This document shows, in pieces, positions 9,001-12,000 of a DNA stretch of 64,000 bases. This stretch comes from a virus. Taxonomy: Duplodnaviria; Heunggongvirae; Uroviricota; Caudoviricetes. The position numbers were made by a program. How positions within the stretch are numbered: position 1 is the first letter of the stretch; each line of letters begins with the position of its first letter. The DNA lies in the IMG/VR virus record IMGVR_UViG_2718217789_000003. The stretch is one strand, 5' to 3'.

Positions 9001-12000
9001 AATAATCAGAACAAGTCGGCTCCTGTTTAGTTACGAGCGACATTGCTCCGTGTATTCACTCGTTGGAATGAATACACAGTGCTGTGTTTATTCTGTTGTT
9101 TATGCCAAAAATAAAGGCCACCATCAGGCAGCCTTGTTGTAAATGTTGCAGGTATCAAGTAAGTAATTAGATGGAGCGCCATAAATTATGAATTCATCGT
9201 TTGTCGGGTCCATCTCCATCTCTTGTCCTATTGCCATTCTTGCGTCAGTGTCGTCAGCGGCGAAGCATAAAACAGCCCACGCACCCATTGTTTTAAAAAG
9301 AACTGCAATTGGCTGTGGTTTTACTGAATTTGCGTTAGCGCGAAAATCACAAATCGCACTTTCATGAAATTCCATATATCACCTCAAATAAGTGGTTTGC
9401 TGCCTAATTTCATTTTCTGGCGACCAACACAAGTCATCTTGCTGTCAGTTGTTTGGATTTACGGTAGCCTGCCGCGTAAAGAGCTACATTTGGAAGACAA
9501 GTTGAGCCTTCATATTTTCTGGTCAACGTTGTCAGTGTTATTACTTCTGCTCTCATTGCTGGTTTGCGTTTGCATTGTAAGACCACTCGTGATGGGGTTG
9601 GCCTGTGTAGTTTGTCGGAGCTAATCGCCTCCTGACTTTGCAGGTTTGCGCGACGAGCTCTACGGCGAGAAGCTGCGGTGCCTTTAAATTCTGTTTTTCT
9701 GGACATAGATTCCTCCCGAATAAACTTTGGCGATGCAATCTCGAAGCTCCTCCTGAGACGGTTGCTTCGGCATTGCATCCCACAGCTTATGTGGTTGGGT
9801 GATCTGGCTTTTCAGCCACGTAGTCGAGAGTCGACGTTGTTTAAAGAGCCTGCCAGTCTGTTCCATTTGGCTTCCAGCGTCCTGCTGATGGTTAAATAGT
9901 ACGATATGTACTTCACTTGGTCAATACAATTTGTTCTAAAACGGGGCGTTTTTTTACAACGCTTTGTATTTAATAGTATTGTTTTTTAGCGTGGGTGTAT
10001 TGCCTCGGCGATGTAAGGAGAGATCAGAATTGCGTTGTTTAGTGAGTTGTATCTATTTATTTTCCAATAAATACAATTGGTTATGTGTTTTTTTGGGCGA
10101 GAGGAAAAGAAAACCCGGCATGGAGGCCGGGTTGATGATTAGCGGTGTGGCCTTGAGCGATAATGCTCACACACATGTTCAAGATTTCCATGCCTTATCC
10201 GTTCATAGGCATTCACATGAACTTCTCGATCGAATTGGTCATTCAAATTGTATGTAGACATCTGTGTTTTCTCATATTGGCGGCAGCCCTACAACCGCTT
10301 GAAAAAATGTACCAGACGCGCTAAGGTTACATCGCAAATATTGTGTACCTTAACAAGGGCTCCTTTTGGAGGCTCTGGTTAAACAGCATCAATGTCGGAC
10401 TGGGGAGTTGGACATTGTGCTGAATGCTTTTGCATTATTGAGGCCGAACGTAAACCTTCAGAATTGAAGAGATGCGTTCGGCTTCTTCGTTTGTGATATC
10501 GTTAGGAATGCCTTTAATCGTTACTGTAACCCCTGATTCAGGTCGAAGAACTACTGGAAGATCATAGGTATGAAGTGCATTAGCCTTGCCTTCGACTTTT
10601 GTTGGTTCGCCAGTCAAATCTTTTTCCTCACTGGATTCTTTGTCAATCGGAGTGTATGGGATTTCTTCACCAGACTGGAAAGCTACAAACTTTTTGATTG
10701 CACTTTCCATGCGGCTTTTATATGCAGTAATGCTGCTGTCGCTAGGCTTCGGCTCAGTTGCGTTGATGTATCGCTCGGCAAGCTCATTCACATCAAGCTG
10801 AGTAACATCACCCATTTCCTCTTCTTGGACTACCGTTAAGAGGCGAGCGGATGAGTTTTTTAAATTTCGAGCGGTGGCCTCCTTCATTATGTTCAGCGAC
10901 ATAAGCTCTTCAAGGAAGTCCTTGAATGCCTGCACGCTAACGTTTGACTTTGCCATTTGCTCTCTCTCTAAGTTATTGACTCAGATCGAGTTTATCCAGG
11001 AATTGATTTGCATGCAAGACTCAAGTCTTGAGAATTTCCGTTCAAGATCCACTCTCAATAAAAAAGGCCGCACCTCTGCGACCTTTCATCTCCTAAATCT
11101 CTTTTCTCTTACCTAAAGAAACAGCAGGCTGGGTCAGCCCTAACAACTTCAAGTGCATCGGTCAGAGAAAGCTCCGTGCTATACAGGTGTTATTTCATAT
11201 CTTTTTGCATCCAATAAATTTTCCATCTGTCCAGAGAGCGGATGCACTTGATTCTTGTTGATGGCAGGACGTTTTTTCACCTGCCTCACCCTGCCATACA
11301 GGACGCTGCTCACCGATATCTATCGTCCGGTCATTGATGTTATAGACAATATCCAGATCATTACGGATATACTCAGATGGCCTTATGCTTTCAATGAATA
11401 GATGAACTTCTTTTTGACCGCTTGATACTCATGGCCATTAAACTCCATCTATCCTCTTTACCCAAACGTCTCTTCAGGCCATTGGCTGGCGATAACTTTC
11501 CCCACAACGGAACAACTCTCATTGCATGGGATCATTGGATATTGCGGGTTTAGTGGTTGTAGAAACACCTGACCGCTATCCCTGATCAGTTTCTTGAAGG
11601 TAAATTCATCACCACCAAGTCTGGCTATGCAGAAATCGCCGGGCTCAACAGCTTGCTCAGGGTCAACCAGAATTAACATCCCGTCAGGAAAACTAGGTTT
11701 GGAACCTGTTGGTGCGGTCATTGAGTTACCTTCAACCTCAAGCCAGAATGCAGAGTCACTGGCTTTTTTGGTTGTGCTTACCAATCTCTCCGCATCACCT
11801 TTGGTAAAGGTTCTGAGTTCTGGAGAGAACATCCCAGCCTGAACATGAGAAAAAACAGGGTACTCATATTGTTTTTTAACTGGGGCCGATGAGTATTCGC
11901 CAACAGGTGAAAATGTCCCGTCGTGGTTGAATGATATGTTATCAATACCAAGGTATTTAAACACCACACCAATATCACTAAGAGATGGATGACGAGATCC

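What the first reader, a model, noticed from the sequence alone, without database searches (positions are those of the whole stretch)
9900..11457. Self-contained uncharacterised gene cassette at the rexAB position of the immunity region
Between cI and N lies a 173-aa acidic ORF (10435..10956, minus strand) with no recognisable motif. It is bracketed by two minus-strand terminators (11059..11083 upstream, 10101..10133 downstream) and preceded by a perfect palindrome CAAGACT-CA-AGTCTTG (11015..11030), so it looks like an independently transcribed, possibly repressor-regulated unit expressed in the lysogen. In lambda this slot holds rexAB and in 933W the stk kinase, so an exclusion or anti-phage defence role is a reasonable hypothesis. 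About 360 bp of structured non-coding DNA (11100..11457) separates it from cI.
Basis: partly seen in the sequence, partly recalled or inferred. Interest (0 to 1): 0.7.

Follow-up and report, generated by a model that had tools for sequence, protein, structure and literature searches.

The report
Three-part accessory cassette beside phage repressor
Next to the repressor gene of the Shiga-toxin phage Sp5 sits a self-contained, widely conserved cassette (a DNA-binding-like protein, a folded RNA leader and a 40-residue protein) whose function is unknown, but whose main gene has been reported impossible to delete from the lysogen.

Summary
The window is the Stx2 phage VT2-Sakai/Sp5. The 173-aa ORF is ECs1184 (H0093).

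**Confirmed:** the ORF, both minus-strand terminators and the palindrome.

**Wrong or incomplete in the finding:**
- The "360 bp of structured non-coding DNA" is a decayed DUF3024 gene.
- The ORF does have a recognisable fold: an N-terminal four-helix bundle like the core-binding domain of tyrosine recombinases, with no catalytic domain.
- The unit is larger than described. Its order is own promoter, ECs1184, hairpin, about 120 nt of structured leader, a conserved 40-aa ORF (H0092), then a lambda tIMM-like terminator.

**Conservation:** gene, leader and micro-ORF stay together in relatives only about 25% identical. 652 clusters at 50% identity match the protein profile. The cassette sits at several prophage moron sites and in non-phage mobile contexts. 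In the larger branch the leader shows helix covariation and a probable pseudoknot. It matches no Rfam family.

**Published data:** ECs1184 could not be deleted from an Sp5 lysogen, and the protein is recovered from strain Sakai.

**Function:** no known defence, toxin-antitoxin or RNA family matches. My best guess, which is inferred, is a self-regulated toxin-antitoxin-like or addiction module. A defence role remains untested.

The parts
11109..11448 (-). DUF3024 pseudogene directly downstream of cI. It is a neighbour of the cassette, not part of it. This is the finding's 'structured non-coding DNA'.
   Evidence: tblastn with the intact 113-aa DUF3024 proteins of AU6Stx1 and SH2026Stx1 gives 81-85% identity spread over three frames plus one in-frame stop. 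The intact gene sits between cI and the cassette in Morganellaceae and SH2026Stx1. Pfam PF11225 matches the intact copy.
11059..11083 (-). Intrinsic terminator ending the cI (pRM) transcript. The stem is at 11066..11083, followed by T6.
   Evidence: The 61-nt stretch containing it folds at -19.7 kcal/mol, z -4.1. The stem GGTCGCAGARRTGCGGCC plus T run is conserved in Oslo, SH2026Stx1 and Morganellaceae; the Serratia locus shows only its 3' half and the T run.
11015..11030 (.). Perfect 7-2-7 palindrome overlapping the -35 hexamer. It is a candidate operator, not a CI operator.
   Evidence: Unique in the window. Identical in Oslo despite diverged flanks, and only the AGTCTTG half is kept in Morganellaceae and Serratia. 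The CI operator motif is absent here. In distant members a promoter-like TTGACG hexamer sits among short repeats or palindromes such as AGACGCGTCT.
10989..11017 (-). Promoter-like site of the cassette: -35 TTGCAT (11012..11017), 17-nt spacer, -10 TAAACT (10989..10994).
   Evidence: It holds the same position and spacing in relatives: TTGCAA-17-TAGAAT in Morganellaceae and TTGACT-17-AAAAAT in Serratia. It scores below the generic scanner's threshold. No transcript mapping is available.
10435..10956 (-). Gene A = ECs1184 / H0093 / Sp5 ORF23. It encodes 173 aa with pI 4.85: an N-terminal core-binding-like four-helix bundle (residues 8-95), a disordered acidic linker (102-127), and a C-terminal beta-hairpin plus helix (130-165).
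10384..10422 (-). Long hairpin just after the stop codon of gene A. It is the counterpart of the G+C-rich, often terminator-like hairpin found in all relatives examined.
   Evidence: Fold. The equivalent hairpins, several followed by T runs, are seen. Its apex is inverted in Oslo, L016 and L162.
10262..10379 (-). Structured leader RNA of the small ORF.
- P1: 10374..10379 with 10311..10316.
- Small hairpin: 10360..10371.
- P3: 10347..10353 with 10321..10327.
- Conserved UAGCG: 10319..10323.
- U-rich linker U6CAAG (10298..10307), which pairs with the ribosome-binding region UGAGAAAA (10267..10274).
- P4: 10295..10298 with 10280..10283.
- Possible pseudoknot: AGCCCU (10356..10361) with AGGGCU (10285..10290).
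   Evidence: 179 nt fold at -54.1 kcal/mol, z -3.9, 0 of 200 shuffles as good. A consensus fold of six window-type leaders has 7 compensated pairs. The sister branch shows strong covariation and pseudoknot support. No Rfam match. The branch-B covariance model does not detect the window copy.
10139..10261 (-). Gene B = H0092 (originally annotated, dropped in RefSeq). It encodes 40 aa and belongs to phrog_21154.
   Evidence: ORF, annotation, PHROG hit. It is conserved about 170 nt after gene A in Oslo, Cronobacter, Yersinia, SH2026Stx1 and a metagenomic prophage whose gene A is only 35% identical. pN/pS is 0.07-0.17 with many synonymous changes.
10101..10133 (-). Intrinsic terminator closing the cassette. 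It is homologous to the rexB-distal (tIMM) end of lambda.
   Evidence: Scanner hit. Fold at -14.3 kcal/mol, z -3.5. Window 10018..10133 is 87.5% identical to lambda DNA annotated 'exclusion protein' or rexB.

Best explanation
**Anatomy (shown).** The region holds an autonomous accessory cassette (a 'moron') inserted between the cI terminator and the tIMM-like terminator next to OL. In order it has:
1. Its own sigma-70-type promoter, overlapped by a palindrome.
2. Gene A (ECs1184).
3. A stable hairpin.
4. A structured leader of about 120 nt.
5. A 40-aa gene B (H0092).
6. A terminator.

**Gene A (fold predicted, binding inferred).** A is an acidic protein whose N-terminal half has the fold of the core-binding domain of tyrosine recombinases. 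It has no catalytic domain, so it is a nucleic-acid binder rather than a recombinase.

**Mechanism (inferred).**
- A represses its own promoter through the palindrome, or binds the leader.
- A thereby keeps gene B silent or neutralised.
- The leader folds so that B's ribosome-binding region is paired.
- Loss of A would release B and stop growth. This would explain why ECs1184 cannot be deleted from the lysogen.

The cassette would then act like a toxin-antitoxin or addiction module. In a prophage such a module can also serve as an abortive-infection defence.
For: **Anatomy**
- ORFs, terminators, promoter and palindrome.
- The trio of gene A, leader and micro-ORF is kept in every complete relative examined, down to about 25% protein identity.
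- Both ORFs are under purifying selection.

**Leader RNA**
- The window copy folds with z -3.9. Its consensus fold pairs the U-rich linker with the ribosome-binding region.
- In the sister branch 91.5% of cells are paired, against 72.7% in shuffles. 14 of 19 pairs have changes on both sides, and 0 of 500 shuffles reach this.
- Pseudoknot partners covary: 0 of 5000 permutations reach the observed match, and 0 of 500 in the fixed-column count.

**Fold of A**
- Weak Phage_int_SAM_1 hits occur in 5 of 37 family members.

**Autonomy and mobility**
- The cassette occurs at different positions in different prophages.
- It also sits beside transposases, a KAP NTPase and a weakly matching TIR-like gene.

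**Phenotype and expression**
- In-frame deletion of ECs1184 was not obtainable and was judged apparently lethal (PMC5155283).
- The protein is present in Sakai and was borderline enriched with RNA, FDR 0.065 (PMC7618764).

**Precedent**
- FliZ is a regulator whose DNA-binding region resembles the integrase core-binding domain and which lacks a recombinase catalytic domain (PMC3367168).
Against: - Nothing shows that B is toxic or that A binds DNA, RNA or B.
- B is hydrophilic, near-neutral (pI 7.0) and matches no known toxin.
- The 174-nt gap between the genes is atypical of type II toxin-antitoxin pairs (my own knowledge).
- No PADLOC hit, although that library contains many toxin-antitoxin-like defence proteins.
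- The micro-ORF family is swapped among relatives. Three unrelated families occur, and hhalign gives 1.3% probability that two of them are related. This is odd for a fixed toxin-antitoxin pair.
- Failure to delete a gene is negative evidence, and ECs1180 failed as well.
- The PNK assay found ECs1184 not to be a strong RNA binder.
- The window's leader is not detected by the model built from the sister branch.
Confidence: 0.4

Rival explanations
1. Lysogeny-maintenance factor, as proposed by the authors of the deletion study. A would be a DNA-binding co-repressor, comparable to FliZ or to the recombinase-like SPbeta/phi3T repressors. It would silence a lethal Sp5 function, and B and the leader would be accessory.
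For: [quoted passage not shown]
- It sits next to cI in E. coli, Salmonella, Cronobacter, Yersinia, Morganellaceae and Serratia prophages.
Against: - The same cassette sits far from the immunity region in other prophages: the nin region, between Q and lysis, and next to int. It also occurs in non-phage contexts. Its partners therefore travel with it rather than with the phage.
- The palindrome occurs nowhere else in the 64-kb window, so no second operator is seen.
- The antirepressor gene has an isrK/C4 antisense RNA pair just upstream of it, which probably controls it.
Confidence: 0.2
2. Conventional exclusion or anti-phage defence cargo. The cassette would protect the lysogen against other phages as RexAB or BstA do, with no self-toxicity logic.
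For: - It occupies the rexAB/stk slot. The flank is shared with prophages carrying other cargo.
- The literature calls the cI-N interval a common moron site that holds rexAB and bstA (PMC7067206).
- Neighbours in environmental loci include a KAP NTPase and a TIR-like protein.
- It is expressed in the lysogen.
Against: - It matches none of 5027 PADLOC models.
- No enzymatic or membrane effector domain is seen in A or B.
- This reading does not explain why the gene cannot be deleted.
- No phenotype has been reported.
Confidence: 0.15
3. Host-directed regulator (lysogenic conversion). A would bind host promoters, as FliZ does, and reprogram host genes. B would be a small co-factor.
For: - FliZ is a precedent: a global repressor that uses an integrase-like DNA-binding region (PMC3367168).
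- The cassette has its own promoter and the protein is present in the lysogen.
- The family is widespread across Enterobacterales.
Against: - The family extends to distant environmental bacteria with the same RNA and micro-ORF. This argues for a self-contained mechanism rather than host-specific targets.
- It does not explain non-deletability.
Confidence: 0.1
4. A mere passenger of the cI operon, or non-functional DNA. The ORF would be read only by pRM read-through, as the original annotation implies, and would have no role of its own.
For: The GenBank record labels 10102..10130 (record coordinates) as the terminator 'for pRM transcript'. A decayed gene lies next door.
Against: - A strong conserved terminator lies between cI and the ORF.
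- Both ORFs are under purifying selection.
- Synteny is conserved across very distant relatives.
- The protein is detected.
- The region is 100% identical over its whole length in 43 of the 44 phage records that cover it fully, and a place covering at least 80% of it occurs in 220 E. coli genomes.
Confidence: 0.03

Closest known systems
Lambda rexA-rexB (and 933W stk, BTP1 bstA): lysogen-expressed cargo between cI and N
   Same: - It has the same slot and orientation and is closed by a homologous terminator. Window 10018..10133 is 87.5% identical to the rexB-distal end of lambda.
- It is expressed in the lysogen.
- The slot is a known mosaic hot spot (PMC7067206).
   Different: - There is no sequence or domain similarity to RexA, RexB, Stk or BstA.
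- It is separated from cI by its own terminator and promoter rather than being co-transcribed.
- It carries a structured leader and a micro-ORF.
- No exclusion phenotype is known.
FliZ (E. coli): a DNA-binding repressor built on an integrase core-binding-like region
   Same: It is a small protein of about 180 aa with a tyrosine-recombinase core-binding-like helical domain and no catalytic domain (PMC3367168).
   Different: - In FliZ the domain is C-terminal; here it is N-terminal and followed by a separate beta-hairpin/helix domain.
- No sequence comparison with FliZ was made.
- FliZ has no associated leader RNA or micro-ORF (my own knowledge).
Tyrosine recombinases (lambda Int, XerD, IntI) and recombinase-like repressors (SPbeta MrpR, phi3T SroF)
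   Different: - There is no catalytic domain. The protein is only 173 aa, and no Phage_integrase Pfam hit was found.
- It therefore cannot recombine DNA.
- It is much shorter than MrpR or SroF.
Toxin-antitoxin modules with an upstream antitoxin and a small downstream toxin (type II, or type V GhoS-GhoT)
   Same: - It has two genes in one orientation.
- The upstream gene is acidic, has a nucleic-acid-binding fold and a flexible linker.
- A palindrome lies at the promoter.
- It is mobile and found in prophages.
- The upstream gene cannot be removed alone.
   Different: - No known toxin or antitoxin family matches.
- A 174-nt structured spacer with a hairpin lies between the genes.
- The small protein is neither hydrophobic nor a recognisable nuclease.
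- Toxicity is untested.
Autoregulatory pseudoknotted mRNA leaders (T4 gene 32, ribosomal-protein operon leaders)
   Same: It is a conserved folded 5' leader with a pseudoknot next to the ribosome-binding site of a small basic or aromatic protein. The comparison itself rests on my own knowledge.
   Different: - The leader matches no Rfam family.
- The binding partner is unknown.
- The leader always travels with a second, larger protein gene.

Membership tests
Tyrosine recombinase / phage integrase | N-terminal core-binding (SAM-like) four-helix domain | tested here: inconclusive
- The Pfam Phage_int_SAM_1 hit has E 0.047, 14.4 bits, below the 22.3-bit cut-off. 5 of 37 relatives hit weakly.
- Foldseek found nothing significant.
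Tyrosine recombinase / phage integrase | C-terminal catalytic domain with the R-H-R-Y active site | tested here: not met
   - The protein ends at residue 173.
- After the linker there is only a beta-hairpin plus one helix of about 40 residues.
- No Phage_integrase hit.
RexAB exclusion system | RexA and RexB homologues | tested here: not met
   No PADLOC or Pfam hit for either ORF. Only the terminal non-coding stretch 10018..10133 resembles the rexB end of lambda.
Known anti-phage defence systems (PADLOC-DB 2.0) | Match to any of 5027 defence protein models | tested here: not met
   0 families for the 173-aa and the 40-aa proteins at E up to 1.
Type II toxin-antitoxin | Toxin or antitoxin of a recognised family | tested here: not met
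   Pfam, NCBIfam and PADLOC give no toxin or antitoxin family for A or B.
Type II toxin-antitoxin | Downstream product is toxic and is neutralised by the upstream product | not testable with these tools
   There is only indirect evidence: gene A could not be deleted in frame (PMC5155283).
Any Rfam RNA family (for the leader 10262..10434) | Covariance-model match | tested here: not met
   - The only hit in window 9000..12600 is GadY at 20 bits, against a 45-bit gathering score, driven by the terminator.
- Nothing overlaps the leader in six related loci.
Leader RNA class defined here from the sister branch (model R1) | P1-P2-P4 architecture detectable by the covariance model | tested here: not met
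   - The window leader scores 0.3 bits with filters off.
- SH2026Stx1 scores 16.9 bits, E 0.16.
- Relatedness of the window leader rests on its position, the shared UAGCG and U-rich-CAAG motifs, and its own consensus fold.
DUF3024 (PF11225), for 11109..11448 | Intact open reading frame of about 113 aa | tested here: not met
   The sequence is clearly homologous (81-85% identity) but carries two frameshifts and one stop. It is a pseudogene.
Prophage moron (autonomous accessory cassette) | Own promoter and terminator, variable position among related phages, dispensable for phage growth | tested here: inconclusive
   - The terminators and the conserved promoter-like site are present.
- The position varies among prophages.
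- Dispensability could not be shown, because the gene could not be deleted.

The most novel reading that the evidence does not exclude
The cassette would be the founding example of an undescribed, widespread class of mobile three-part modules, made of:
- a recombinase-derived core-binding-domain protein that has lost catalysis;
- a new pseudoknotted leader RNA;
- an interchangeable microprotein.

In this reading the large protein reads the RNA or its own operator to gate the microprotein. In Sp5 the module would be essential for keeping the Shiga-toxin prophage lysogen alive.
Probability: 0.3. Interest if true: 0.8.

Novelty: new variant of a known kind. Interest (0 to 1): 0.62.

Why it matters
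- Sp5 is the Stx2 phage of the Sakai outbreak strain. Whatever makes its lysogen stable bears on toxin release.
- ECs1184 is one of only two Sp5 genes that could not be deleted, and no reason was known.
- This work gives a concrete, testable anatomy: promoter and palindrome, a core-binding-like protein, a leader RNA and a 40-aa protein.
- It shows that the same trio is spread through many bacteria and mobile elements.
- If the module is an addiction or abortive-infection device, it adds a new protein and RNA architecture to that class.
- If it is a lysogeny factor, it adds a second layer to lambdoid immunity.
- Separately, the leader is a candidate new structured RNA family.

Tried and rejected
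- **Sequence libraries.** Pfam, NCBIfam, PADLOC and PDB sequence searches on A and B found nothing usable.
- **Foldseek.** Searches against PDB and BFVD found nothing significant. The AlphaFold-database library was unavailable.
- **Structure of the 40-aa protein.** The AlphaFold model has pLDDT 56 and is unusable, so no fold search was run on it.
- **Rfam.** No family matches the leader.
- **Locus fetching by protein.** The genome collection returned a single locus. A viral scan with a single protein found nothing.
- **RNA pattern scan of metagenomes.** 136 loci were retrieved across the metagenome and viral scans, but only 9 were true.
- **Homology between micro-ORF families.** Rejected: hhalign gives 1.3% probability.
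- **The small ORF as an integrase arm-binding domain.** I considered this from memory; no Pfam support was found.
- **The palindrome as a CI operator.** Rejected.
- **A as the repressor of the antirepressor gene.** Judged unlikely, since isrK and C4 antisense RNAs lie just upstream of that gene and the palindrome is unique in the window.
- **Model R1 on the window leader.** No detection.
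Full report
**Identity of the window.** The 1558 bases of the finding are 100% identical to VT2-Sakai/Sp5 and to dozens of other Stx phages. 44 phage records cover them fully at 99% identity or more. A place covering at least 80% of the query occurs in 220 of 5426 complete E. coli genomes. In strain Sakai the 173-aa ORF is ECs_1184, cI is ECs_1185 and N is ECs_1181. In the original record the ORF is H0093 and a 40-aa ORF downstream is H0092.

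**Check of the observation.**
- The ORF at 10435..10956 (-) is real and acidic, pI 4.85.
- Both terminators fold well. 10101..10133 has an 8-bp stem and a T run, z -3.5. The stem at 11066..11083 is followed by T6; the 61-nt stretch around it folds with z -4.1.
- The palindrome at 11015..11030 is perfect and unique in the window. It is not significant on its own.
- The interval 11100..11457 is not non-coding. The intact 113-aa DUF3024 protein, which follows cI in 933W-type phages, aligns to it at 81-85% identity. The alignment runs across three reading frames and includes one in-frame stop. It is a pseudogene at 11109..11448.

**The slot.**
- The stretch from OL to the downstream terminator (9900..10141) is shared at 85-90% identity with many other prophages whose adjacent cargo differs: rexB, a DUF1828 protein, a NYN-domain protein or nothing annotated.
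- In 933W-type phages the slot holds DUF3024, an ORF annotated as RuvC-like, and stk.
- The literature describes the cI-N interval as a mosaic site for accessory loci such as rexAB and bstA (PMC7067206).

**An independent unit.** I compared the 200 nt upstream of the gene in E. coli, Salmonella phage Oslo, SH2026Stx1, Morganellaceae and Serratia.
- The terminator stem GGTCGCAGARRTGCGGCC with its T run is conserved in most of them. The Serratia locus shows only its 3' half and the T run.
- Downstream of it lies a -35/-10 pair at a fixed position: TTGCAT-17-TAAACT in the window, TTGCAA-17-TAGAAT in Morganellaceae, and TTGACT-17-AAAAAT in Serratia.
- The palindrome overlaps the -35 hexamer. It is identical in Oslo although the flanks differ. 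In more distant relatives only the AGTCTTG half remains.
- Distant environmental members have a promoter-like TTGACG hexamer among short repeats or palindromes such as AGACGCGTCT.
- The CI operator motif (AGTAC-N5-GTACT) is found at OL and OR but not here.
- No transcript mapping was available, so the promoter remains inferred.

**Protein A.**
- Sequence libraries give nothing above threshold. It belongs to phrog_2602, function unknown.
- An AlphaFold model built from 24 homologues has mean pLDDT 72. It shows a four-helix bundle at residues 8-95 with pLDDT mostly 86-90, a disordered acidic linker at 102-127, and a beta-hairpin plus helix at 130-165 with pLDDT about 70.
- Foldseek finds nothing significant. 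Pfam SAM-like hits are sub-threshold.
- I therefore call the fold assignment likely, not proven.
- There is no catalytic domain, so the protein is not a recombinase.
- FliZ is a precedent for a regulator that binds DNA through an integrase core-binding-like region and has no recombinase catalytic domain (PMC3367168).

**Family and contexts.**
- A profile search finds 652 clusters at 50% identity. The 150 best listed are mostly 160-210 aa and matched over nearly their full length.
- Close relatives occupy the cI-N slot in Salmonella, Cronobacter, Yersinia, Morganellaceae and Serratia prophages. In Morganellaceae an intact DUF3024 gene lies between cI and the cassette.
- Others lie in the nin region of a Klebsiella prophage, between Q and the lysis/Mom genes on the opposite strand, or next to the presumed integrase gene of a Yersinia phage.
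- Environmental copies lie beside DDE and rve transposases, a Rep_trans gene, a KAP NTPase and a weakly matching TIR-like gene.
- The cassette therefore moves as a unit and is not tied to the immunity region.

**The small ORF.**
- In the relatives with enough downstream sequence, a small ORF starts about 140-175 nt after the stop of gene A.
- The exception is the Yersinia phage YP3 copy. Only the start of its leader is kept and no small ORF was found.
- The window's H0092 belongs to phrog_21154. It recurs in Oslo, Cronobacter, Yersinia, SH2026Stx1 and a metagenomic prophage whose protein A is only 35% identical.
- Its pN/pS is 0.07-0.17. For example, against Yersinia there are 19 synonymous differences in 25 sites and 9 non-synonymous in 94. 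It is a real gene, more constrained than gene A (0.18-0.34).
- Other branches carry a different microprotein at the same place. One is phrog_33859, with the motif PPG-[FWY]-[RK]-W-x-x-C-R-[FY]-R-R ... L-D-A-x-x-Y-G-Y-x-x-W-x-F. The other is a 47-aa Cys-rich protein.
- The first two families are not detectably related.

**The leader RNA, sister branch.** The spacer is conserved at the DNA level even where the proteins have diverged.
- In the larger branch (14 distinct sequences) RNAalifold recovers P1 and P2 with compensatory changes.
- After realignment to a covariance model, 91.5% of cells are paired, against 72.7% in shuffles and 38-49% in slid controls. 14 of 19 pairs change on both sides, and 0 of 500 shuffles reach this. 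That alignment was fitted to the model, which favours the structure.
- The 7-nt strand between P1 and P2 is complementary to the loop of the hairpin that precedes the ribosome-binding site. Eight distinct partner pairs occur, for example GGGAAGC/GCUUCCC, GGAAGAC/GUCUUCC, GGAGAG/CUCUCC and GGACAC/GUGUCC.
- Cognate complementary runs average 6.0 nt, against 3.86 nt for non-cognate pairs. 0 of 5000 permutations reach this.
- A fixed-column count agrees: 79.4% paired against 71.4% in shuffles, 0 of 500. One slid control is also high, because the strands are purine and pyrimidine tracts.

**The leader RNA, window copy.**
- The window's leader is not detected by the sister-branch model. Its membership in the same RNA class is therefore argued, not shown.
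- It shares the position, the UAGCG motif and the U-rich-CAAG linker.
- It folds at -54.1 kcal/mol, z -3.9.
- A consensus fold of six window-type leaders keeps P1, a small hairpin, P3 and P4. It has 7 compensated pairs, including a complete exchange of P1 (ACCAGA/UCUGGU versus CUGUAAC/GUUACAG). The U-rich linker pairs with the ribosome-binding region.
- A 6-bp AGCCCU/AGGGCU match mimics the pseudoknot, but it does not vary within this group.
- No Rfam family matches.

**Published experiments.**
- Mondal et al. built in-frame deletions of Sp5 genes in a K-12 lysogen and obtained 43 mutants. They could not delete ORF21 (ECs1180) or ORF23 (ECs1184). They judged the deletions apparently lethal and the genes probably needed for stable lysogeny (PMC5155283).
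- A 2025 RNA-interactome study recovered ECs1184 from strain Sakai, borderline enriched at FDR 0.065. In a PNK assay its signal was similar to the negative control (PMC7618764).
- The protein is therefore made in the lysogen. It is not a strong RNA binder under those conditions.
- No paper assigns a function.

**Mechanism.**
- *Shown:* the anatomy, the conservation of the trio, purifying selection on both ORFs, structure in the leader, expression, and failure of deletion.
- *Inferred:* A binds nucleic acid through the core-binding-like domain. It regulates its own promoter and/or the leader. B is the active, potentially harmful product held in check. This toxin-antitoxin-like reading explains non-deletability, mobility and the self-contained regulation.
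- *Caveats:* no toxin family matches, the microprotein is exchangeable, the spacing is atypical, and the phenotype is a negative result. I give this reading 0.4.

**Rival readings.**
- A lysogeny co-repressor (0.2). It is weakened by the cassette's occurrence outside immunity regions and outside phages, and by the absence of a second copy of the palindrome.
- Plain defence cargo (0.15). It has positional support only.
- A host-directed regulator (0.1).
- A functionless passenger (0.03). It is contradicted by selection and expression.

**Novelty.**
- The gene is annotated and its non-deletability is published, so the locus itself is not new.
- New here are the fold assignment, the recognition of the pseudogene, the extension of the unit to a leader RNA and a microprotein, and the breadth of the family.
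- I file it as a new variant of a known kind: an autonomous prophage accessory cassette with toxin-antitoxin-like logic.
- I leave about 0.3 probability that it is a class of its own.

Noticed in passing
window 9124..9375 (-): ECs1180 (H0090, Sp5 ORF21) is an 83-aa acidic ORF just downstream of N. It is the only other Sp5 gene reported as non-deletable (PMC5155283). It has no Pfam match. The two non-deletable genes flank N and OL/pL.
   Followed up: partly
window 17344..17529 (+): Rfam matches above the gathering score to isrK (17344..17420) and C4 antisense RNA (17446..17529). They lie just upstream of the antirepressor gene ECs_1199 (about 17973). This looks like a P1-like c4/ant immunity module inside Sp5.
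   Followed up: no
window 10384..10422 (-); L004, L016, L162: The hairpin after the stop of gene A has its apex exactly reverse-complemented between relatives: ACUCCCCAGU in the window, Cronobacter and Yersinia, against ACUGGGGAGU in Oslo, L016 and L162. The hairpin top has been inverted.
   Followed up: partly
L003 (SH2026Stx1) and L004 (Oslo), upstream of the cassette; window about 11084..11100: Short remnants of a cI 3' end (GAGACATTTGGGTGA-like, encoding ...ETFG*) sit just before the conserved terminator, even when another gene intervenes. They look like scars of recombination through the conserved end of cI.
   Followed up: no
L011, L162, L163 (downstream of gene A homologues): A third microprotein family occupies the small-ORF position in Serratia-type cassettes. 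It is 47 aa and Cys-rich (MATTIC-x-KCGN...PIPVCGC), with a sub-threshold hit to a treble-clef zinc-finger model. Three apparently unrelated microproteins thus follow related leaders; only the first two were compared formally.
   Followed up: partly
window 9900..10141: The OL-to-terminator flank is shared at 85-90% identity with hundreds of E. coli prophages whose neighbouring cargo differs (rexB, DUF1828, NYN-domain). It marks a recombination boundary of the cargo slot.
   Followed up: partly
window 23790..24001, 18474..18557, 22139..22379, 1154..1270, 8455..8513: Other Rfam matches above the gathering score are STnc100, sRNA-Xcc1, three tRNA genes, an ALIL pseudoknot and the lambda cIII thermoregulator.
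   Followed up: no
upstream of gene A homologues: window 10986..10989 and 11046..11049; L003, L011, L016, L018: GATC (Dam) sites cluster in or next to the promoter of the enterobacterial cassettes. They are often inside short palindromes such as AACGATCGTT or GATTCATCGATC...GATCGATGAATC. Most environmental members lack them.
   Followed up: no
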